Of a stretch of DNA of 64,000 nt, positions 6,492 to 40,687 are shown piece after piece. Position 1 is the first letter of the stretch, and each line of letters opens with the position of its first letter. The notes under the pieces were generated by a model. That model ran no database searches. It had not been told where the DNA came from and was given only the letters and a program-made list of their open reading frames with translations. Position numbers and translations under genes: made by a program. The stretch spans positions 1,065-65,064 of the forward strand of contig JBGPBZ010000001.1 in the NCBI GenBank assembly GCA_041481535.1. Reading direction: 5' to 3'. This DNA comes from Dehalococcoidia bacterium. GTDB taxonomy: Bacteria; Chloroflexota; Dehalococcoidia; SM23-28-2; RBG-16-64-32.

Positions 6492-6970
6492 GCGGCGACG
6501 GCTGCCTGGCCTGTGAGCTCGCCTCCGGGAAGCAGCCGCTCGTTGGTGGGACGATTCACCGAACGCCACACTGGACGGTGGAGCACTGCGTTGGGCCGCT
6601 CGGTGTCGGCACGCTGATCGTCAAGCCGCTGCGGCACGTGGTGCGCTTCGCTGAGCTGACAACGCCGGAAGCCGCTGAGTTCGGGCAGCTGCTGCACATG
6701 GTCACGCGCGCTCTCGGCGAAGAGCTGGAGCCGGACCAGACGTACATCACAGAGTGGTCGCACGCCGGGTTCGTCGCAGGGCACATCCATTTCGTCGTCC
6801 AGCCGGCTTGGGACGCGAACCGTGAGCGCTTCGAGCGTCCGGGGCCGTTCACTCAGGTCGCGATGTTCGAGTCAAACGTGCCGCTGAACGAGGCGGCGGT
6901 CGTCGCCTTCTGCGATCGCCTGCGGGCGCGAATGGCCAGCGTTCGAGGAAAGAGCGGCGGACAACAGTGA
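6488..6970 (+). CDS. HIT (histidine triad) family hydrolase
   Basis: The histidine triad motif is AGHIHFVVQP. The N-terminus is Cys-rich (CLACE). The ATG at 6488 overlaps the upstream stop (ATGA). Confidence 0.7.
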   Translation: MSGDGCLACELASGKQPLVGGTIHRTPHWTVEHCVGPLGVGTLIVKPLRHVVRFAELTTPEAAEFGQLLHMVTRALGEELEPDQTYITEWSHAGFVAGHIHFVVQPAWDANRERFERPGPFTQVAMFESNVPLNEAAVVAFCDRLRARMASVRGKSGGQQ

Positions 6971-9624: not shown

Positions 9625-9725
9625 CATCGATTTTCCACGCGTCCGGCGGCCTGGCGGCCGTATCCGTTTTGGCGGACTTAGGCCCATGGCTTTGCGCCCC
9701 ACCCTTTCGGGCGGTTTGCTCTTTT
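9625..9725 (-). ncRNA. Candidate c-di-GMP-I (GEMM) riboswitch in the 5' leader of the GGDEF/HD-GYP operon
   Basis: The minus strand reads AGCAAACCGCCCGAAAGGGUGGGGCGCAAAGCCAUGGGCCUAAGUCC. This matches the GEMM core (GCAAACC, a GAAA tetraloop, GGGRCGCAAAGCC, GGGCCUAA). Downstream, CGCUUUGGCGG can pair with aptamer CCGCCAAAACG, which would form an expression platform. Confidence 0.55.
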
Positions 9726-9849
9726 CCAGCCTGGAATTGGATACGCGGAGTAGCCACGCATCCACTCAGTAAGACGCTACCTGACCAGACCAGTTACATA
9801 AGCAGAAAGTAAGGAAATGGTTGCGATCCTATAGCAGTTGCCGGACGGG

Positions 9850-31966: not shown

Positions 31967-32413
31967 CTAATCCTGTGTTAGTAGCAGATGAATCAGCGGA
32001 CGCTCTGACAATGGTTTGCCTCCGGGGAGCAATAGCACCAATTGATTGAGCTGTTCCTCTGGTGCGTTGCCTATTACGTCCAAGGCTATGGATCTTGCTG
32101 ATAGCCAAAGCGCAATCTTGTCGACGTTCTTCTCGTGGCCAGCCGCGATGCTGACTGTAAATTCGTAGAGTTCTTCGTCGTACGCGCACAACACTTGGCT
32201 GTTGGTCAGCAAGAAGACTATCGCTGCCGCCAGTCCCATTCGCTTGTTCCCATCCATGAACGGGTGATCGAGGATGATCGAACGCATGAGAACCGCGGCC
32301 TTGGCAAAGTCGCCGACATAGGCCTCCTCGCCAAATGCTGATTGTCGGGGGAGAGCGAGGACACCTTCGAGGACATCGCGACCGCGTTCGCCAAGCAACG
32401 ACAGGACGGGCAT
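31967..32413 (-). CDS. doc: Fic/Doc family toxin (death-on-curing)
   Basis: HPFMDGNKRMG is the Doc/Fic motif. GC is about 50%. Confidence 0.75.
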   Translation of the reverse strand: MPVLSLLGERGRDVLEGVLALPRQSAFGEEAYVGDFAKAAVLMRSIILDHPFMDGNKRMGLAAAIVFLLTNSQVLCAYDEELYEFTVSIAAGHEKNVDKIALWLSARSIALDVIGNAPEEQLNQLVLLLPGGKPLSERPLIHLLLTQD

Positions 32414-32499
32414 TGGGTCGTCTGGCTGAGAGAATACTTCGACTGCGAGTTCGTACGCGACTGTGTTCAGATCGTCGAAGGACAGGTAGTTAGTCGAGG

Positions 32500-32646
32500 C
32501 TAGTCCTTCTGGAGGCGCTCAAAGACTTTCTTGTGCGCCCGAGCAATCGCCTTCGAGGCGCCGCGAACAGTAGTAACTTCCCGGATCTTTTCCTGAGATA
32601 GCCGGTTCTTGGGTGCTTGCTTACGCGTCGATTTACTCGTGACCAT
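32500..32646 (-). CDS. Putative antitoxin (48 aa, basic; Phd/RHH-like) upstream of doc
   Basis: ATG at 32646. The product is MVTSKSTRKQAPKNRLSQEKIREVTTVRGASKAIARAHKKVFERLQKD. It sits 86 bp upstream of doc. Confidence 0.4.
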   Translation of the reverse strand: MVTSKSTRKQAPKNRLSQEKIREVTTVRGASKAIARAHKKVFERLQKD

Positions 32647-32667
32647 ATCTGTCAAATATTACCACGC

Positions 32668-33192
32668 CTACGGGCCCAACCCGCCGATCTTGTACTTGAC
32701 AGCGACGGAAATCGTGCCCGAGCCGGTGTTGACGAGGTCGATCGTATCGCACCCGATGGACTGTTCGCCGGACGGACCTTCGGCGACCTTCACATCCGAG
32801 CCGCTGCGTTCGATCTGCCACTGGAGGGTGACGTTAGCGGGCGGGTAGGGGTCCTGGACCTGCCAGGTGAAGTCGAACTGGAAGTTGTCGCAGGATGGCG
32901 TGCTCCCCGCCGCCTCGGCGATGGCCTGCGGGTCGAACGGATAGATTTCGCCGGGGCCGAGTTCGGCGGTGGCGTCGCCGCTTGTGATCAGCGTCACCGC
33001 TTCGTCCAGCGTAGGCTCGGCGGGCGCAGGGATGGGGCCCCCATTGGCGGTTGTCGGCTCAGCCGAGGCAGTTGGCGCGCCGGACTTCGTACCGATCGGG
33101 GAGATCGTACCGGACGGGGTGTCGTCGCCGCCGCAAGCGATCGCGAGCACGAGGGTGGAGAGCGCGAGGACGGCGAGGGCGGCGCGAATCAC
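32668..33192 (-). CDS. Hypothetical lipoprotein
   Basis: The signal peptide plus lipobox reads LVLAIAC-GGDD. The mature region is Pro/Thr/Ala-rich. Its start overlaps the stop of the translin-like gene. Confidence 0.55.
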   Translation of the reverse strand: MIRAALAVLALSTLVLAIACGGDDTPSGTISPIGTKSGAPTASAEPTTANGGPIPAPAEPTLDEAVTLITSGDATAELGPGEIYPFDPQAIAEAAGSTPSCDNFQFDFTWQVQDPYPPANVTLQWQIERSGSDVKVAEGPSGEQSIGCDTIDLVNTGSGTISVAVKYKIGGLGP

Positions 33193-33836
33193 TTCGGGAG
33201 GCGCTCTTCGAACTGCTGGAGGCGTTGCTCGAGCCGTCGCTGCATGTAGGAGGCGGTGAAGTCGCCGCGAGTGCGCTCGAGGATGCCACGCATGGCGTCA
33301 GCGGTGCGGCGGAGGCCGGCGGTGACGGCTTCGGGGTAGTCCATCGTGACGAGCGCGTCGTAGATGTCGCCCATCACCTGCAGCGATTCTTCGCAGTGCT
33401 CGATATCGCCCGCGCGCATTGAGTCGAGGAGGTGGCGGCGCAACTCGCCGACTGTCTCGCCGAGGCCGTTGAGGTAGGACGCCGCCATTACGCCGATGTC
33501 CTGCGGCGTCGGCAGGGAGCGCCCCGCGATCAGGGCGAGCGTGCAGTTCGCCTCGGCGTATTCCTTCTGGGAGTCGTGAACGAAGCCCGCGTAGTAGATG
33601 TCGCGGTGCTCGGCCAGCAGCTTTTCGACTTCGTCGAGGTTGGCTCGGCCTTTGCGGAGGAGCACCTCGGCTTCCTCGAAGTTGCGGCGGTGGACGTTGC
33701 GGATGGCGTTGGCGGAGAGGCGGATGACCTCGCGGGTGAGAGCGAGCGCGCCTTCGCGAGCCTTGTGCTTGGCGTCGAGGTAGGCGCGGACTTCGTCGGC
33801 TATTGCGTTGAGGCCGTCAGCGTTCATTGGGCGCAA
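33189..33836 (-). CDS. Translin-family (translin/TRAX-like) all-alpha protein
   Basis: The pattern IYYAGFVHD...EYAEANCTLALI...YLNGLGETVGELRRHLLDSMRAGD parallels the eukaryotic translin core (YYRFHEHW..YL.G..ELSRL..NSVTAGD). Confidence 0.45.
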   Translation of the reverse strand: MRPMNADGLNAIADEVRAYLDAKHKAREGALALTREVIRLSANAIRNVHRRNFEEAEVLLRKGRANLDEVEKLLAEHRDIYYAGFVHDSQKEYAEANCTLALIAGRSLPTPQDIGVMAASYLNGLGETVGELRRHLLDSMRAGDIEHCEESLQVMGDIYDALVTMDYPEAVTAGLRRTADAMRGILERTRGDFTASYMQRRLEQRLQQFEERLPK

Positions 33837-33864
33837 TCATAGCACCGCGCGTAGAGTGTTTCGC

Positions 33865-34203
33865 TTACAGGTCTTTCACCGGGTCGGGGAACTCCCCTTC
33901 GCGGGCGGCGTCGATCATCTTGCGCGCCTCTTGCGGCATGTCCATACCGAACTCGTCGAACTTGCGCTCGGCCCAGCGGCCGATCTGGCGCGGGTCTTTG
34001 TAGTCTTCGAGGCGGCTTGGCTCGGAGGAGTACCGCTCTGCGATGTCGCTCTTTGATTGATGGTGCGCGAACTTGGAGAAGACGCGCTCCAGTTTCTTCG
34101 AGCCGCAGTGCTTGCACTCGGCGGTCGTGGGCGCGTCGGCGCTGCGCGTGAAGACACTCGTGAGGCGGCTGCACTTGGCGCACTTGTATTCGTAGATGGG
34201 CAT
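33865..34203 (-). CDS. FmdB-family zinc-ribbon protein (paralog 1)
   Basis: MPIYEYKCAKC...CKHCGS is the CxxC...CxxC zinc ribbon with the family's N-terminal signature. Confidence 0.7.
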   Translation of the reverse strand: MPIYEYKCAKCSRLTSVFTRSADAPTTAECKHCGSKKLERVFSKFAHHQSKSDIAERYSSEPSRLEDYKDPRQIGRWAERKFDEFGMDMPQEARKMIDAAREGEFPDPVKDL

Positions 34204-34245
34204 GCGTCTAGATTAACAAACCTACAAACCGACGAACCCACAAAC

Positions 34246-34602
34246 CTACAGGTCGTCTCCGAACGAATCGGCGTCGCCGTCGTCATCGTCCGACATCTCG
34301 CCGGATTCCATGCGTTCGAGCTCGCCCTGCATGTCGGCGTCGAGTGGCTCACCCATCTCGCGGCTCATTTTGCGGACCCATTTGGCGACGGAACGCGGGT
34401 CGTTCTCGTCGACATCGCCGAGGCTGGATTCGGCGCCCTCGAGGCCGTCGCCACCGCGGAGGACGGCGATCCGGGAGAAGATGCGCTCGGTCTTCTTCGA
34501 GCCGCAGTGCTGGCAGGCGGGTTTGGCGACAGAGGTGACGCTGCGTACGAAGACGGACGTGCGCTTGCGGCAGCCGGCGCAGCGGAACTCGTAGATCGGC
34601 AC
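34246..34602 (-). CDS. FmdB-family zinc-ribbon protein (paralog 2, acidic C-terminal tail)
   Basis: MPIYEFRCAGC...CQHCGS followed by a DDDDGDADSFGDDL tail. Confidence 0.7.
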   Translation of the reverse strand: MPIYEFRCAGCRKRTSVFVRSVTSVAKPACQHCGSKKTERIFSRIAVLRGGDGLEGAESSLGDVDENDPRSVAKWVRKMSREMGEPLDADMQGELERMESGEMSDDDDGDADSFGDDL

Positions 34603-35360
34603 TACCAGCCCTCCCCGGCGCGCGTCTCTGCGATCTCCTCGCGGACCTCGCAGACCTTGAGATAGGGGCAGAAGCCGCAGTGCGGGGCGATCGTCGGTAG
34701 AAAGTCGTGCACGTCTTCCATCGCCTGGACGGTGGCGAGAAGCTCTTCGCGGGCGCGGCGCTTGTCATCGTCGGAGAAGTCCATCGTCCAGACGGAGCCG
34801 TCGTCGAGGTACCAGAATGACGCCTTCGAGACGCTGCGGCCGAGCTTGGCCTCCACGAGGAGAGCGTAGAAGATGAGTTGCTTCGGGTCGATCTCCTCGG
34901 GCTGGGTGCCGGTCTTGTAGTCGATGATATGCAGCGTGCCGTCCGGCTCTTCGTCCAGGCGGTCGAGGCGGCCGAAGAGCGTGACGCCGGGCTCGACCTC
35001 TTCCTGGAAATACGGCTCGACCATGAATGGGCGGGCGTCGATGTCGAACTTCAGCGTGAAGTTGTTGAGCTGGCGGAGCGAGGCTTCGTAGTGCTCCTCG
35101 ACGCCGGCGATGCGGTGGTAGTTCGGCGTGAGCGCCTGCCAGCCATCTTTGAACATGTCGAGGAGGCGGTCGTGGCTGCGCTCGTTCTCGGGAACCTTGG
35201 TGAAGAAGTCGCAGAGCACGCGGTGGACGAGGCTACCGGCCGTGTCTGCGGGCCGCAGGCGTGGCTTCACGCGGCCCTCGTCCTTGTTGACGTACTGGTA
35301 TCGGAAGCGGAGGCGGCAGGCTTCGAAGACGCGGACTTTGAGGGGCGAGACACGGGCCAT
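34602..35360 (-). CDS. PD-(D/E)XK nuclease, Cas4/RecB-like with a predicted Fe-S cluster
   Basis: GRLDRLD and IIDYKTG are the D and E-x-K catalytic motifs, and KQLIFYALL is the QxxxY motif. An N-terminal Cys plus the C-terminal CGFCPYLKVC form the cluster site. A TACAAT sits 7 nt upstream of the ATG at 35360, suggesting a leaderless mRNA. An alternative GTG start exists at 35387. Confidence 0.6.
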   Translation of the reverse strand: MARVSPLKVRVFEACRLRFRYQYVNKDEGRVKPRLRPADTAGSLVHRVLCDFFTKVPENERSHDRLLDMFKDGWQALTPNYHRIAGVEEHYEASLRQLNNFTLKFDIDARPFMVEPYFQEEVEPGVTLFGRLDRLDEEPDGTLHIIDYKTGTQPEEIDPKQLIFYALLVEAKLGRSVSKASFWYLDDGSVWTMDFSDDDKRRAREELLATVQAMEDVHDFLPTIAPHCGFCPYLKVCEVREEIAETRAGEGW

Positions 35361-35479
35361 CGGAGTAATTGTAGGTGCGGAACGCACGATTTTGTGAAAA
35401 CGTGACGCGGATAACTTCAGAGGCTGGCTACCTATGGTATTGTTTAGGCAATCGATCCCAGCATACCGGCGAGGGGTAT

Positions 35480-36406
35480 ATGAGTAGCGAGGCGTCAGCT
35501 CGAACGCAGGCGGGCCTGAGGGCGTTGCTAAACAGGAGGGCTCGCGAAATCAAGGCGAACATTGACGTTGTCCTGAGGTGGCGCCCGGGGTGGAAAGACG
35601 GCGCCGAGATATTCCTCCTGGCCTCGACCCTGCCGCTCTACTACCTGGTGCGCGGCGTTACGAACAGCGAAAACCACATCAACCAGGCTGTGTCGCGCGG
35701 CGTCGACATCATCAACATCGAGAACAGCCTCGGCATCTTCTACGAAGTGCAGTTACAGCACTGGGCGCTGCACTACGACTGGTTGATAACGTTCCTCAAC
35801 GCGTTCTACCTGTACGGGCATCTGCCGGTGATTGGCGCGCTCGCGGTCTGGATGTACTTCTGGCACCGGCCGCAGTACCTGGTGATGCGAAACGCGTTTC
35901 TGGTGTCGGGCGCGATCGCCCTGATCTTTTACGTCAACTTCCCCACTGCACCACCGCGGCTGCTCGATGCTTCCGGATACCACTTCGGGTTTGTGGACAC
36001 GATCCTGGACCAGTACAAGACGAGCCGGCCGGACACGCCGTCCTGGTTCGTGAACGAGTACGCGGCGTTCCCCAGCATGCACATCGGCTGGAACTTGCTG
36101 GTCGGTATCTCAATCTGGCTTTCGACCAGGAATGTGCTTATGCGTGCGTTTGCCGTGGTCATGCCGTTCACGATGTTCTGCGTGATCATACTCACCGGCA
36201 ACCACTACCTGCTGGACGCGGCGGCCGGGATCATAGTGATGCTGATCGGCCTCGGGATTGCGTTTGGGGGGAAAGCTCTGATACAGCGGGTGATCTCGCC
36301 TGACAGCAGGACCGCGAGGGAGAAGGGCTGGGTGCGGTGGGTGTACTGGCTCTTCGGCGTGCCCGACAAGAAGGACGCTGGACTGACTGCTTCGCAACCC
36401 GCATAA
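35480..36406 (+). CDS. PAP2-superfamily integral membrane protein (AUR1 / sphingolipid-synthase-like)
   Basis: PAP2 motifs PSMH and NHYLLD (SRx5Hx3D-type), with 6 or more TM helices. Confidence 0.65.
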   Translation: MSSEASARTQAGLRALLNRRAREIKANIDVVLRWRPGWKDGAEIFLLASTLPLYYLVRGVTNSENHINQAVSRGVDIINIENSLGIFYEVQLQHWALHYDWLITFLNAFYLYGHLPVIGALAVWMYFWHRPQYLVMRNAFLVSGAIALIFYVNFPTAPPRLLDASGYHFGFVDTILDQYKTSRPDTPSWFVNEYAAFPSMHIGWNLLVGISIWLSTRNVLMRAFAVVMPFTMFCVIILTGNHYLLDAAAGIIVMLIGLGIAFGGKALIQRVISPDSRTAREKGWVRWVYWLFGVPDKKDAGLTASQPA

Positions 36407-36415
36407 TTTTTCGCA

Positions 36416-37447
36416 GTGCAAGTTAAAGGCCTGCTCGCCGCCGTTCCCCGCGTACTCTTCACCAACGCGCCGATTGACGCCCAACTTATCATCACCCGCC
36501 GCTGCAACTTGAGCTGCGGCTACTGCGCCGAGTACGACAACTTCTCTGAGCCGGTGCCGCTCGACGTGCTAAAGGAGCGCATCGACGCGCTGCACAAGCT
36601 GCACTCCGCGAACATCACTCTGCTCGGCGGCGAGCCGCTGATGCATCCCGACATCGCCGAGATCGTGCGCTACGCGGGGCGCAAGGCGAACGTCAGCATC
36701 GTCACCAACGGATTCCTGCTCCGCAACGGCGTGATCGAGGCGCTAAACCAGGCCGGACTGAACAACCTCACGGTGAGCGTCGACACGTTGAAGGCAGACC
36801 GCACGCGCTACATCCAGAAGTCGTTCCAGTCGCTGAAGACACGGCTGCTGCGCCTGCAGAACCTGGCGCGGTTCGACGTGCACGTGACGGCGGTCCTCTG
36901 CGACTCGTCGAAGGACGACTTCCGGGAGCTGGTGCGCGAGGTGCAGGGGATGGGCTTCCGGATGTCGATCAACCTGCTGCACAACGCGAAGGGCTACATC
37001 ACGATCGAGGGGCAGCCGTACCTTGACCTGTTCGAGGAGTTCTACCGCGAGGGCAAGCCGTTCACGTTCCTCGACTACGAATACGGGAAGGCGCTTCTCT
37101 CGGGCGAGCGGCCGGACTGGGCGTGCAAAACGGGCTCGCGCTACCTCTACGTGGACGAGCACGGCGACGTCCAGCTCTGCGCGTCACAGCTTGGGCGCAA
37201 GAACTTCGTGAAGCCGATCGTGGACTACACGTCGGAGGACTTGAACCGCAACGCGAAGACGGCGAAAGGCTGCGAAGAAGGATGCTCGGTGGGCTGCGCG
37301 TTCCGCTGTTCCGTGATCGACAACGACAAGCCGGCGTTTGTCAGCGCAATCGTCAAAGGCGGCCTACGCGGGACAATTTTTGACAACGGGCGCGCGAAGA
37401 AGCGCGCACCGAAGTTGCATCCGGAAGTCGCGCTCAGCGACGAGTAG
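36416..37447 (+). CDS. Radical SAM enzyme with a C-terminal SPASM/twitch-like Cys cluster
   Basis: CNLSCGYC is the CxxxCxxC motif. The C-terminus carries CKTGSRYLYVDEHGDVQLC...CEEGCSVGCAFRC. GTG start. Confidence 0.75.
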   Translation: MQVKGLLAAVPRVLFTNAPIDAQLIITRRCNLSCGYCAEYDNFSEPVPLDVLKERIDALHKLHSANITLLGGEPLMHPDIAEIVRYAGRKANVSIVTNGFLLRNGVIEALNQAGLNNLTVSVDTLKADRTRYIQKSFQSLKTRLLRLQNLARFDVHVTAVLCDSSKDDFRELVREVQGMGFRMSINLLHNAKGYITIEGQPYLDLFEEFYREGKPFTFLDYEYGKALLSGERPDWACKTGSRYLYVDEHGDVQLCASQLGRKNFVKPIVDYTSEDLNRNAKTAKGCEEGCSVGCAFRCSVIDNDKPAFVSAIVKGGLRGTIFDNGRAKKRAPKLHPEVALSDE

Positions 37448-38013: not shown

Positions 38014-38601
38014 TCAGACTAGACCGCTGTGTTCACGTATGAATTCCATGATCCTCTGGCGGCCAGATACGACGAATCGATACTTCTTGCCGTCCTTGGT
38101 CAACACTAGAAGCCCGTTTGGAACTACACCTAGCGTGTTCTTGAGGGTAACCTCTCGCACGTCGGACATCGGGATTTCGGTCTCACCGGTTTGCAGGTTG
38201 AAGCGGTGCGACTTGAAGAGCAATGTATCCGGAGTTAGAAACAGCCTTCCCCCCACGGACTCAATCCCGCGAAAGAGGTTCGCCGCGACGTCAAATCCCT
38301 CCGACCCCTCGTGTGTCGTTTGCGGCTGTAAGGGCGCGCCCGCATTCTCGGTGTGCGCCGAGCTGGAAGCATGCGCGTCTCCGGCATGGCCCCGGCGACG
38401 ATCGTATTCGGACCGTGCCGCGGAATTTCCCAACACTTCGAATGCAGCATTGATCTGCTTCATCCGTTCCGACGCGTCGACTCGAGTGTTGACATCAGGA
38501 TGGTACTTTCGGGCCAGTCTCCTGTATGCCGCGTCAATCACTTCCGCTTCGGCGGAAGGGTGGACTTGCAGGATCTCGTAGTAATCGGGCTCTTGAGCCA
38601 T
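38014..38601 (-). CDS. J-domain protein with a C-terminal bacterial PH/GRAM-like domain
   Basis: YYEILQV...KYHPD is the J domain. The C-terminal [14 protein letters not shown]...KKYRFVV segment looks bPH-like. GC is about 55%. Confidence 0.6.
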
Positions 38602-40319: not shown

Positions 40320-40448
40320 CCTGGCTCGATGCTAGCGCCGCGGCGAGAAGCGAGTCAACGAAACGAGCAGGCTTGTTAACAATATGCTACCGCTAAGAAT
40401 CAATCATCAGCCGGACAAACGTGACAACTGCTTGATTGTTTGAGCGAT

Positions 40449-40494
40449 TGCTGATTGACTGTTTGCTGATTGACTGTTTGCTTTTGATACGGGA
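40449..40494. repeat. Tandem direct repeats (CTGATTGACTGTTTG x2 plus a partial copy) in the rnhB/tautomerase divergent promoter region
   Basis: Reads gattgCTGATTGACTGTTTGCTGATTGACTGTTTGCttttga, immediately upstream of the GGGAGG RBS of the tautomerase gene. Confidence 0.6.
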
Positions 40495-40501
40495 GGACAG
40501 G

Positions 40502-40687
40502 ATGCCAATCGTGCACATAGAGATGTTCAGCGGCCGCACAGACGCGCAGAAGAGCGAGCTGGCCCGCGTAATCACGGACGCCCTCGTCAATATCGCTCAC
40601 ACAACCCCCGACGCAACCATCGTTATCTTCCAAGATATCGACAAGGAGAACTGGGCCCAGGAGGGCAAGCTATTAAGCGAAGACTAG
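40502..40687 (+). CDS. 4-oxalocrotonate tautomerase family protein
   Basis: MPIVHIEMF gives a catalytic Pro1 after Met removal. GGGAGG lies 5 nt upstream of the ATG. The protein is 61 aa. Confidence 0.7.
   Translation: MPIVHIEMFSGRTDAQKSELARVITDALVNIAHTTPDATIVIFQDIDKENWAQEGKLLSED

What the first reader, a model, noticed from the sequence alone, without database searches (positions are those of the whole stretch)
32668..35360. Operon: Cas4-like Fe-S PD-(D/E)XK nuclease, two FmdB zinc-ribbon paralogs, translin-like protein, lipoprotein
Five co-oriented genes with overlapping or short junctions begin with a RecB/Cas4-type nuclease. It has intact D, ExK and QxxxY motifs and a 4-Cys cluster site (N-terminal Cys plus C-terminal CGFCPYLKVC). 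Two tandem FmdB CxxC-CxxC zinc ribbons follow, one with a poly-Asp tail. Next is a protein whose helical core matches translin/TRAX, a ssDNA/RNA-binding scaffold that forms an RNase with TRAX in eukaryotes. A lipoprotein closes the set. Translin homologs are rare in bacteria. Combined with a Cas4-like nuclease and nucleic-acid-binding zinc ribbons, they point to an undescribed nucleic-acid processing or defence module. The phd/doc cassette and the low-GC island sit immediately downstream.
Basis: partly seen in the sequence, partly recalled or inferred. Interest (0 to 1): 0.7.

Follow-up and report, generated by a model that had tools for sequence, protein, structure and literature searches.

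The report
Clade-specific nuclease, zinc-ribbon, TRAX operon
The five genes are real and correctly identified (an iron-sulfur nuclease, two small zinc-ribbon proteins, a bacterial TRAX/C3PO-type nuclease and a lipoprotein), but they sit in a core chromosomal stretch kept in order only in one group of soil Chloroflexota, and nothing points to a defence system or a widely conserved new module.

Summary
Observation confirmed; interpretation only partly. Five co-oriented minus-strand genes at 32668-35360 have junctions of -4 to +42 nt. They are: (1) a stand-alone Cas4-family/AdnA-like PD-(D/E)XK nuclease with an invariant 4-Cys site and D...DxK...QxxxY motifs; (2,3) two paralogous FmdB zinc-ribbon proteins; (4) a TRAX/C3PO homologue (PDB AfTRAX E=3e-24; AF2 model TM 0.81/0.91 to AfC3PO; acidic tetrad kept in all 76 sequences); (5) a lipoprotein with no known family. 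Bacterial TRAX homologues were already reported in Chloroflexi and are abundant in metagenomes. The order Nuc-Zn1-Zn2-Trax is near-invariant in one Chloroflexota clade (59/61, 45/45, 23/23 contigs). However, the unrelated upstream genes (RNase HII, PTE, YraN, radical-SAM, PAP2) are almost as syntenic there. Outside the clade TRAX has other neighbours: ThiD2/ThiE, MoaC, or an SDH-type protease and DegV. The nuclease was seen in 0 of 70 such loci. There are no PADLOC system hits, no phage or plasmid copies, no CRISPR array, and no cas or Argonaute gene among the ORFs checked. Most likely this is a lineage-specific, co-transcribed set of housekeeping genes. A cooperative nuclease pathway remains possible but unproven.

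The parts
34602..35360 (-). Nuc: stand-alone Cas4-family / AdnA-like PD-(D/E)XK nuclease with a 4-Cys (Fe-S 'iron staple') site. 252 aa from ATG 35360; an alternative GTG start at 35387 gives 261 aa.
   Evidence: PDDEXK_1 E=1e-35, 124 bits. TIGR00372 cas4 scores 45.8 bits, below its 65-bit cut-off. Invariant C24, C237, C240, C246, D142, D156-Y-K158, Q170, Y174. AF2 pLDDT 92. Top Foldseek hits are the AdnA nuclease domain and ACE1, TMq about 0.7.
34246..34602 (-). Zn1: FmdB-family zinc-ribbon protein, 118 aa. It has an N-terminal CxxC...CxxC, a conserved DPRS-x-AKW-x-RK...E-x-GEP motif and an acidic tail. Its start overlaps the Nuc stop by 1 nt.
   Evidence: Zn_ribbon_8 E=6e-12 and TIGR02605 48 bits, cut-off 31. 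Within about 8 nt of the Nuc match in most of the 59/61 contigs scored adjacent.
33865..34203 (-). Zn2: paralogous FmdB-family zinc-ribbon protein, 112 aa, with a conserved C-terminal region (DPRQIGRWAERKFDEFG...EARKMIDAAREG).
   Evidence: Zn_ribbon_8 E=4.5e-14 and TIGR02605 52.7 bits. 36% identical to Zn1 over 107 aa, E=2e-23. Homologues are almost all exactly 112 aa. Present in 45/45 contigs.
33189..33836 (-). Trax: bacterial TRAX/C3PO-like protein. 215 aa from TTG 33836, or more likely 212 aa from ATG 33827. The metal-binding tetrad E92, E95, E127, E131 is intact.
   Evidence: phmmer to AfTRAX 3zc1 E=3.4e-24 and to NeTrax 7e-8. AF2 pLDDT 91.8. Foldseek AfC3PO TM 0.81/0.91, rmsd 1.7 A, followed by NeC3PO, human TRAX and translin. 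The tetrad is acidic in 76/76 sequences. NCBIfam PRK14562 models E=1.7e-80.
32668..33192 (-). Lipo: predicted lipoprotein, 174 aa, with signal peptide and lipobox ...LVLAIA|C and no known family. Its start overlaps the Trax stop by 4 nt. It is a variable member of the block.
   Evidence: Read directly from the sequence. No Pfam, NCBIfam, PADLOC or PDB match. Detected downstream of Trax in only 11/19 contigs. Absent in L004. An unrelated extra lipoprotein lies between Zn2 and Trax in L003.
31967..32655 (-). Possible 3' extension of the transcript in this genome: a 51-aa ORF (32500-32655) and a Doc/Fic toxin gene (31967-32413).
   Evidence: Same strand, 12 nt after Lipo. The only minus-strand terminator-like sites found are at 31945-31931 and 31883-31871, after Doc. 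Doc matches Fic E=7e-11 and TIGR01550. This flank is shared only with the closest relatives L001, L002, L082 and L085.
35361..35479 (.). Divergent intergenic region between Nuc and the PAP2_3 gene; presumed promoter region of the operon.
   Evidence: Gene layout. No sigma-70 consensus match was found, so the promoter is inferred, not shown.

Best explanation
This is a lineage-specific, probably co-transcribed string of housekeeping genes in the core chromosome of an uncultured Chloroflexota bacterium.

It encodes two independent, probably active nucleases.
- The first is a stand-alone [4Fe-4S] Cas4-family/AdnA-like enzyme. By analogy with AdnA, AddB and ACE1 it would cut single-stranded DNA ends.
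- The second is a prokaryotic C3PO. By analogy with the A. fulgidus and N. equitans enzymes, this TRAX-like protein would form a closed homo-octameric barrel and cleave short RNA or DNA with two divalent cations held by E92/E95/E127/E131.

Between the two nucleases lie two paralogous FmdB zinc-ribbon proteins. Their conserved C-terminal motifs and acidic tails suggest small adaptor or regulatory proteins, or Ruc-like stress chaperones. A membrane-anchored lipoprotein rides along as a dispensable passenger.

Shown here: gene identities, intact active-site and cluster residues, tight junctions, and conservation of order within one clade.

Inferred: co-transcription, enzymatic activities and oligomeric state. 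The genes appear to share expression rather than form an obligate machine. The likeliest role is general turnover or repair of nucleic-acid fragments, next to RNase HII and YraN, and not immunity.
For: - Identities.
- Tight junctions (1-nt and 4-nt overlaps; no terminator-like site inside the block on the coding strand).
- Within-clade conservation: Zn1 next to Nuc in 59/61 contigs, Zn2 in 45/45, Trax downstream in 23/23.
- Background synteny is equally strong. RNase HII-PTE-YraN and the divergent radical-SAM/PAP2 pair are kept upstream (PAP2 in 41/49).
- Outside the clade TRAX sits in other contexts: RNase HII-YraN-(Zn1-Zn2)-ThiD2/ThiE-Trax in Dehalococcoidia, GalU-MoeA-MoaC-membrane protein-Trax in about 38 Actinomycetota, and DedA-SDH-type protease-Trax-small TM protein-DegV in other Chloroflexota.
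- Core, non-mobile setting.
- C3PO biochemistry (homo-octamer, four acidic residues, Mg/Mn dependence, cleavage of ss/ds RNA and DNA): PMC5100593.
- Cas4-family D-DxK motif and iron staple; ACE1, AdnA and AddB cleave ssDNA: PMC12094033.
Against: - The Nuc stop and Zn1 start lie within a few nucleotides in nearly every contig of the clade. The four-gene order survives insertions of up to about 1 kb and a changing downstream flank. That is more than simple inertia might give and could reflect functional coupling.
- The Zn1-Zn2 pair stays near Trax in L006/L007 even without Nuc.
- No expression data or biochemistry exists for any bacterial member, so 'housekeeping turnover' is an inference from context.
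Confidence: 0.55

Rival explanations
1. Dedicated nucleic-acid processing module. The Fe-S nuclease, the two zinc-ribbon proteins and the TRAX barrel act together. For example, Nuc would generate or trim single-stranded fragments, and the Zn-ribbon adaptors would deliver them to the C3PO-like barrel for destruction.
For: - Near-invariant order and very tight Nuc/Zn1 and Trax/Lipo junctions across a clade in which Nuc identity falls to 54%.
- Both nucleases keep all catalytic residues.
- The Zn pair stays near Trax in L006/L007.
- The closest stand-alone structural relative of Nuc, ACE1, works as an accessory nuclease with another nucleic-acid enzyme (PMC12094033).
Against: - Nuc is absent within about 5-6 kb of Trax in 70 of 75 species-level loci.
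- Zn ribbons are absent near Trax in most non-clade Chloroflexota loci.
- Unrelated upstream genes are nearly as syntenic.
- Zn1 is missing in L090 and L101, and other genes are inserted between Zn2 and Trax in many contigs.
- No interaction evidence exists.
Confidence: 0.2
2. Stress or proteostasis reading. Zn1 and Zn2 would be Ruc-like redox-activated holdase chaperones. The block would belong to a stress neighbourhood (ClpC, FtsH, a DnaJ-domain protein) in which the nucleases are co-expressed stress-repair enzymes.
For: - The Ruc family is defined by an N-terminal 4-Cys zinc ribbon of about 50 aa plus a hydrophilic C-terminus. It is reported in 100% of Chloroflexi genomes examined and is linked there to FtsH, GroEL and RidA (PMC7448276).
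- ClpC, FtsH and a DnaJ-domain gene lie within about 7 kb.
- Ruc-position FmdB genes match the Zn1/Zn2 profile at 1e-12 to 1e-16.
Against: - The Zn1/Zn2 C-termini are not variable low-complexity tails. They carry conserved motifs, and Zn2 has a fixed 112-aa length.
- They lack the FKGSGFY segment seen in the actinobacterial Ruc-position proteins.
- ClpC adjacency is limited to the closest relatives.
Confidence: 0.15
3. Anti-phage or anti-plasmid defence system built on a solo Cas4-family nuclease and a TRAX nuclease.
For: - Nuc gives weak hits to PADLOC Cas4, DruK and Argonaute-associated Cas4-like nuclease models.
- Solo-Cas4 enzymes have been proposed to act as independent immune systems (PMC12094033).
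- A Doc toxin gene lies next door.
Against: - No PADLOC hit for Zn1, Zn2, Trax or Lipo.
- The block is fixed at one chromosomal position in every clade member rather than patchy.
- Housekeeping genes flank it.
- No TRAX in 50,697 phage records, 72,556 plasmids or IMG/VR contigs.
- No CRISPR array or tRNA in the window, and no cas or Argonaute gene among the ORFs checked.
Confidence: 0.04

Closest known systems
Archaeal C3PO / AfTRAX (A. fulgidus, PDB 3zc0/3zc1) and NeTrax (N. equitans, 5jr9)
   Same: Single translin-superfamily gene in a prokaryote. 34% identity to AfTRAX over about 188 residues, the same all-helical fold (TM 0.81/0.91), and the same four metal-binding acidic positions plus the following Arg (E131...R134) (PMC5100593).
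   Different: The host is bacterial. The third acidic residue is Glu here; in the family it is Glu in 55 and Asp in 21 of 76 sequences. Oligomeric state and activity are untested. The archaeal genes are often linked to SepRS (PMC5424206), which is not seen here.
Eukaryotic translin/TRAX (C3PO) complex
   Same: Same superfamily and fold. Human TRAX chains score better than translin chains.
   Different: There is no second paralogue in the locus, so no hetero-octamer. There is no RNAi machinery, and no Argonaute among the ORFs checked in the window. Identity is only about 20%.
Bacterial translin-superfamily proteins of Chloroflexi (Gupta, Kale & Kumar 2012, as cited in PMC5100593 and PMC5424206)
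   Same: This gene belongs to that already reported bacterial group; the nearest genomes are Chloroflexota MAGs.
   Different: The present data also place the family in about 40 Actinomycetota MAG species. The neighbourhood with a Cas4-family nuclease was not mentioned in the papers I could read.
Cas4-family nucleases: AdnA/AddB nuclease domains, pAgo-associated ACE1 (9iab/9iac), CRISPR Cas4
   Same: D...DxK...QxxxY catalytic motifs. One N-terminal and three C-terminal Cys forming the iron staple. Best structural matches are AdnA and ACE1 (PMC12094033).
   Different: It is stand-alone, with no fused helicase, and with no adjacent Argonaute, cas1/cas2 or CRISPR array. It scores below the TIGR00372 Cas4 cut-off.
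Ruc (M. tuberculosis Rv0991c) / FmdB zinc-ribbon family
   Same: N-terminal CxxC-x17-19-CxxC ribbon of about 45 aa followed by a hydrophilic C-terminus. The family is ubiquitous in Chloroflexi (PMC7448276).
   Different: Zn1 and Zn2 are a tandem paralogous pair with conserved C-terminal motifs. They lack the FKGSGFY segment of the actinobacterial Ruc-position proteins.

Membership tests
Translin/TRAX superfamily (prokaryotic C3PO type) | Significant sequence homology to a solved TRAX protein | tested here: met
   AfTRAX E=3.4e-24 over residues 14-201; NeTrax E=7e-8.
Translin/TRAX superfamily (prokaryotic C3PO type) | All-alpha translin fold | tested here: met
   AF2 model pLDDT 91.8 with helices only. 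Foldseek top 50 hits are all C3PO, TRAX or translin; the best is TM 0.81/0.91, rmsd 1.7 A.
Translin/TRAX superfamily (prokaryotic C3PO type) | Four acidic metal-binding residues of TRAX (Ne E82/E85/D117/E121) | tested here: met
   E92, E95 and E131 are present wherever aligned, and position 127 is E or D in 76/76 sequences.
Translin/TRAX superfamily (prokaryotic C3PO type) | Curated profile thresholds (Pfam Translin; NCBIfam PRK14562) | tested here: inconclusive
   Pfam PF01997 scores 24.3 bits against a 25.9 cut-off. NF011160 scores 269 bits against a 291 equivalog cut-off. Both are just below threshold although E=1.7e-80 for the latter.
Translin/TRAX superfamily (prokaryotic C3PO type) | Closed homo-octamer and Mg/Mn-dependent RNA/DNA cleavage | not testable with these tools
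   Needs a multimer model or biochemistry.
Cas4 family / Fe-S PD-(D/E)XK nucleases (PDDEXK_1) | Profile match above threshold | tested here: met
   PF12705 scores 124 bits against a 22 cut-off, covering the full length.
Cas4 family / Fe-S PD-(D/E)XK nucleases (PDDEXK_1) | D...D/ExK...QxxxY catalytic motifs | tested here: met
   D142, D156-Y-K158, Q170 and Y174 are invariant. Motif III is DxK.
Cas4 family / Fe-S PD-(D/E)XK nucleases (PDDEXK_1) | One N-terminal plus CX2CX5C C-terminal cysteines (iron staple) | tested here: met
   C24, C237, C240 and C246 are present in 119 of 121 aligned sequences; the other two have gaps. Fe-S occupancy itself is not testable here.
CRISPR-associated Cas4 (sensu stricto) | TIGR00372 equivalog score and cas/CRISPR neighbourhood | tested here: not met
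   45.8 bits against a 65 cut-off. No CRISPR-like array in the window. None of the neighbouring ORFs or the ten large ORFs checked by Pfam is a cas gene.
AddB/AdnA-type repair nuclease | Nuclease domain fused to a UvrD-like helicase | tested here: not met
   The protein is 252 aa and stand-alone. It resembles the AdnA nuclease domain only.
pAgo-associated ACE1 | Operon with a long-A Argonaute | tested here: not met
   None of the neighbouring or large ORFs scanned by Pfam is an Argonaute; all identified ones are housekeeping genes.
FmdB / Zn_ribbon_8 family | N-terminal CxxC...CxxC ribbon with a profile score above the cut-off | tested here: met
   TIGR02605 scores 48.3 and 52.7 bits against a 31.3 cut-off. 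PF09723 scores 45.9 and 52.6 bits against 34.4.
Ruc-type redox chaperone | Variable, disordered hydrophilic C-terminus; chaperone activity on oxidation | tested here: inconclusive
   The C-termini are hydrophilic but carry conserved motifs. Activity is not testable.
Known anti-phage defence systems (PADLOC-DB 2.0) | Component proteins match a system's models | tested here: not met
   Only generic Cas4, DruK and Aga-nuclease hits for Nuc; none for Zn1, Zn2, Trax or Lipo.
Known anti-phage defence systems (PADLOC-DB 2.0) | Variable or mobile genomic context | tested here: not met
   Fixed position in all clade members. No phage, plasmid or viral copies of Trax.
Bacterial lipoprotein | Signal peptide with lipobox Cys | tested here: met
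   MIRAALAVLALSTLVLAIA-C-GGDD, read directly from the sequence. No dedicated predictor was available.

The most novel reading that the evidence does not exclude
In this Chloroflexota clade a solo Cas4-family Fe-S nuclease, two dedicated zinc-ribbon adaptor proteins and a bacterial C3PO barrel form one pathway that produces and then destroys short single-stranded nucleic-acid fragments. This would be a bacterial counterpart of nuclease-plus-C3PO teamwork in eukaryotic small-RNA metabolism. It would also give the first physiological role to a bacterial TRAX.
Probability: 0.15. Interest if true: 0.6.

Novelty: new member of a known kind. Interest (0 to 1): 0.3.

Why it matters
No study assigning a function to a bacterial TRAX/C3PO homologue turned up in my literature searches; the structural and biochemical work I found is archaeal or eukaryotic. 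A clade in which the gene is tightly coupled to a stand-alone Fe-S nuclease and two small zinc-ribbon proteins gives a concrete, testable set of candidate partners. As it stands, the finding mostly refines annotation. The family is mislabelled 'haloacid dehalogenase' in NCBIfam. It extends to Actinomycetota. And it removes a candidate from the list of possible new defence systems.

Tried and rejected
- GT-rich repeat (GGTTTGT x3) in the Zn1/Zn2 spacer as a possible translin-binding element. Rejected: relatives have 4-6 nt spacers and no such motif.
- CRISPR or Argonaute association of the Cas4-like nuclease. No arrays, and no cas or pAgo gene among the ORFs checked.
- Mobile-element or defence-island context. 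No tRNA genes and only one Rfam hit, far away; the flanks are housekeeping genes.
- TRAX in phages, plasmids and IMG/VR. No match.
- Lipoprotein identity. No Pfam, NCBIfam, PADLOC or PDB sequence match. No structure was predicted, because homologues from loci cannot be submitted and the two jobs went to Trax and Nuc.
- Promoter scan. No sigma-70-like site, which is uninformative for this phylum.
- Reaching distant Nuc or Zn2 relatives. The protein searches and the metagenome scan returned only in-clade sequences. The Nuc-centred neighbourhood outside the clade therefore could not be examined.
- A common partner of TRAX across bacteria. None was found. An FmdB gene lies 3.5-4 kb upstream on the opposite strand in Actinomycetota. 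From my own knowledge, that matches the usual actinobacterial Rv0991c/galU synteny, so I do not treat it as a specific link.


Full report
**Observation**

The minus strand of window 32668-35387 carries five consecutive ORFs.
- Nuc: 261 aa from GTG 35387, or 252 aa from ATG 35360, which matches the 248-255 aa of homologues.
- Zn1: 118 aa, 34602->34246.
- Zn2: 112 aa, 34203->33865.
- Trax: 215 aa from TTG 33836, or 212 aa from ATG 33827, like most homologues.
- Lipo: 174 aa, 33192->32668.

The junctions are a 1-nt overlap, 42 nt, 28 nt and a 4-nt overlap. All five have protein-level matches in related contigs, so they are genes and not chance ORFs. No terminator-like site lies inside the block on the coding strand. 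The first ones follow the downstream Doc gene, at 31945-31931 and 31883-31871. In this genome the transcript may therefore also include a 51-aa ORF and Doc.

**Nuc**

- It matches Pfam PDDEXK_1 over its full length (E=1e-35) and Cas_Cas4 weakly.
- Against NCBIfam it scores below the cut-offs for Cas4 (45.8 against 65 bits) and AddB.
- In an alignment of 121 sequences, C24, C237, C240, C246, D142, D156-Y157-K158, Q170 and Y174 are invariant.
- This is the Cas4-family D...DxK...QxxxY active site with the one-plus-three cysteine iron staple described in PMC12094033.
- An AlphaFold2 model (pLDDT 92) is closest to the nuclease domain of mycobacterial AdnA and to the Argonaute-associated ACE1 (TMq about 0.7). 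CRISPR Cas4, AddB, Dna2 and Exo5 follow further down.
- The protein is stand-alone. The window has no CRISPR array, and none of the ORFs scanned by Pfam (the neighbours plus ten of the 33 ORFs of at least 330 aa) is a cas, helicase-nuclease or Argonaute gene.

**Zn1 and Zn2**

- Both pass the FmdB/Zn_ribbon_8 thresholds.
- They are paralogues: 36% identity over 107 residues, E=2e-23.
- Beyond the ribbon they share a DPR-x-[IV]-x-x-W-x-x-[KR]...E-x-G motif.
- Zn1 ends in an acidic tail. Zn2 has a fixed length of 112 aa in nearly all 120 listed homologues.
- The only characterised relative of this family that I could find is M. tuberculosis Ruc (Rv0991c). It is a zinc-ribbon protein with a disordered C-terminus that becomes a holdase chaperone on oxidation. 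It is reported in all Chloroflexi genomes examined and is linked there to FtsH, GroEL and RidA (PMC7448276).
- Nothing here shows nucleic-acid binding.
- The conserved C-terminal motifs also distinguish Zn1/Zn2 from the actinobacterial Ruc-position proteins, which carry FKGSGFY plus low-complexity tails.

**Trax**

- phmmer against PDB sequences gives AfTRAX at E=3.4e-24 and N. equitans Trax at 7e-8. Human and fly TRAX are marginal.
- An AlphaFold2 model (pLDDT 91.8, all-helical) superposes on AfC3PO at TM 0.81/0.91, rmsd 1.7 A and 34% identity. NeC3PO, human TRAX chains and translins follow.
- The four cation-binding residues defined for NeTrax (E82, E85, D117, E121; PMC5100593) correspond to E92, E95, E127 and E131. 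E92 and E95 are present in all 75 sequences aligned at those columns, and E131 in all 76. Position 127 is E in 55 and D in 21 sequences. The following Arg (R134) is also invariant.
- The translin assignment is therefore confirmed, and more precisely this is a TRAX-type, probably catalytically competent, prokaryotic C3PO.
- NCBIfam's PRK14562 models match at E=1.7e-80 but name the family 'haloacid dehalogenase superfamily protein'. Given the fold, that name is a misnomer.
- Single translin-superfamily genes in the bacterial phylum Chloroflexi are already in the literature (Gupta et al. 2012, as cited in PMC5100593 and PMC5424206).
- The family is not rare in sequence space. 7,405 of the 8,000 scored 90%-identity clusters match at E<=1e-5. 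A pattern-limited scan of one genome per species found 75 loci: Chloroflexota, about 40 Actinomycetota MAGs and one weak Kiritimatiellota hit.

**Lipo**

- It has a typical signal peptide and lipobox (…LVLAIA-C-GGDD) but no match in Pfam, NCBIfam, PADLOC or PDB.
- It is the least stable member of the block. It was detected after Trax in 11 of 19 contigs with enough flank and is absent in L004.
- In L003 an unrelated extra lipoprotein sits between Zn2 and Trax.

**Is it a module?**

From the TRAX side (75 species-level loci):
- The complete order occurs only in the closest relatives among those loci, L001-L005, where Trax is at least 75% identical. L001 and L005 are cut short by their contig ends.
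- L006/L007 have RNase HII-YraN-Zn1-Zn2-ThiD2/ThiE-Trax without the nuclease.
- About ten other Dehalococcoidia have RNase HII-YraN-ThiD2/ThiE-Trax.
- About ten 'Chloroflexia' MAGs have DedA-SDH-type protease-Trax-small TM protein-DegV.
- About 38 Actinomycetota have GalU-MoeA-MoaC-membrane protein-Trax. An FmdB gene lies 3.5-4 kb upstream on the other strand. From my own knowledge this matches the ordinary actinobacterial Rv0991c/galU arrangement.
- The nuclease profile finds nothing near Trax in the other 70 loci.

From the nuclease side:
- All retrievable homologues belong to one clade with 54-91% identity.
- Within that clade the order is nearly invariant. Zn1 follows Nuc in 59/61 contigs, usually within about 8 nt. 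Zn2 is present in 45/45 and Trax downstream in 23/23. Insertions of up to about 1 kb are tolerated between Zn1/Zn2 and Zn2/Trax.
- The same contigs keep the unrelated upstream genes. These are FtsH, tautomerase, RNase HII, PTE and YraN, plus the divergent radical-SAM/PAP2 pair. PAP2 is present in 41/49. The window has the same layout.
- Only the downstream flank varies: Doc/ClpC here and in the closest relatives, GGDEF-HD and UvrA elsewhere.
- The conservation is therefore real. It cannot be separated from general synteny of a core chromosomal segment in one lineage.

**Defence?**

- PADLOC gives only generic Cas4, DruK and Aga-nuclease hits for Nuc, and nothing for the Zn-ribbon proteins, Trax or Lipo.
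- TRAX has no homologue in the phage, plasmid or IMG/VR collections.
- The window has no tRNA genes and no CRISPR array, and it is filled with core genes: ClpC, FtsH, LigA, MreB, PBP2, RodA, FabF and a Mur ligase.
- The block is fixed in position rather than patchy.
- Defence is unlikely.

**Verdict**

- The component assignments are supported.
- The 'undescribed processing or defence module' reading is only weakly supported.
- The best explanation (confidence 0.55) is a lineage-specific, probably co-transcribed set of housekeeping genes. It includes two independent, probably active nucleases and two small zinc-ribbon proteins of uncertain role.
- A cooperative Nuc-Zn-Trax pathway remains the most interesting reading not excluded (about 0.15-0.2). 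Its support is the conserved tight coupling of Nuc and Zn1, and the persistence of the Zn pair near Trax in L006/L007.
- Every gene belongs to a known family, and bacterial TRAX is already described. I rate the finding as a new member of a known kind, interest 0.3.

Noticed in passing
window 9642-9730 (-): c-di-GMP-I riboswitch aptamer, 75 bits against a gathering score of 35. It is the only Rfam hit in the window.
   Followed up: no
window 31967-32655 (-): Doc-like residues (NYLSFDDLNTVAYEL...) continue about 27 codons upstream of the first canonical start of the Doc ORF, back to an in-frame stop, with no ATG/GTG/TTG in that stretch. This suggests either a non-canonical start or an N-terminally truncated toxin. 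The upstream 51-aa ORF is conserved in L001 (67%) but matches no Pfam family even at E<=1, so 'phd' is not supported by sequence.
   Followed up: partly
window 34204-34245: GT-rich spacer between Zn1 and Zn2 with three GGTTTGT copies. It is specific to this genome; relatives have 4-6 nt spacers.
   Followed up: yes
loci L024-L074 (genome contigs): TRAX-like genes occur in about 40 Actinomycetota/Acidimicrobiia MAG species in a conserved GalU-MoeA-MoaC-membrane protein-Trax context. One weak hit (27% identity) is in a Kiritimatiellota MAG. The literature I read lists only Chloroflexi among bacteria (PMC5100593).
   Followed up: partly
window 33189-33836 (-): The NCBIfam PRK14562 equivalog models call this family 'haloacid dehalogenase superfamily protein', and some MAG records are named that way. 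The fold is clearly TRAX, so this is an annotation error that is being propagated.
   Followed up: yes
L020 about 6700-6970 and equivalent positions in L023, L025-L028, L033, L037, L040: In 'Chloroflexia' MAGs Trax is followed by an ~89-aa membrane protein. Its N-terminus (ASELGEYSYCSRAWWYRH) resembles the first-cysteine motif of Cas4-family nucleases. It has no Pfam match and gave no significant hit to the Nuc profile.
   Followed up: partly
window 35375-37447 (+): A PAP2_3 membrane phosphatase-like gene and a radical-SAM gene form a pair divergent from the operon and conserved throughout the clade. The radical-SAM protein gives viperin-like PADLOC hits (1e-19) but scores far below the NCBIfam viperin cut-off (58 against 180 bits). 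It is probably a generic radical-SAM enzyme.
   Followed up: no
window 38014-38601 (-): A DnaJ-domain plus GRAM-domain protein is inserted between PTE and YraN, compared with L076 and L078 where those two genes are adjacent.
   Followed up: no
window 40448-40482: A perfect 15-nt tandem repeat (TTGCTGATTGACTGT x2.3) lies at the 5' end of the listed tautomerase ORF (40436-40687), in the stretch between RNase HII and the tautomerase/FtsH genes.
   Followed up: no
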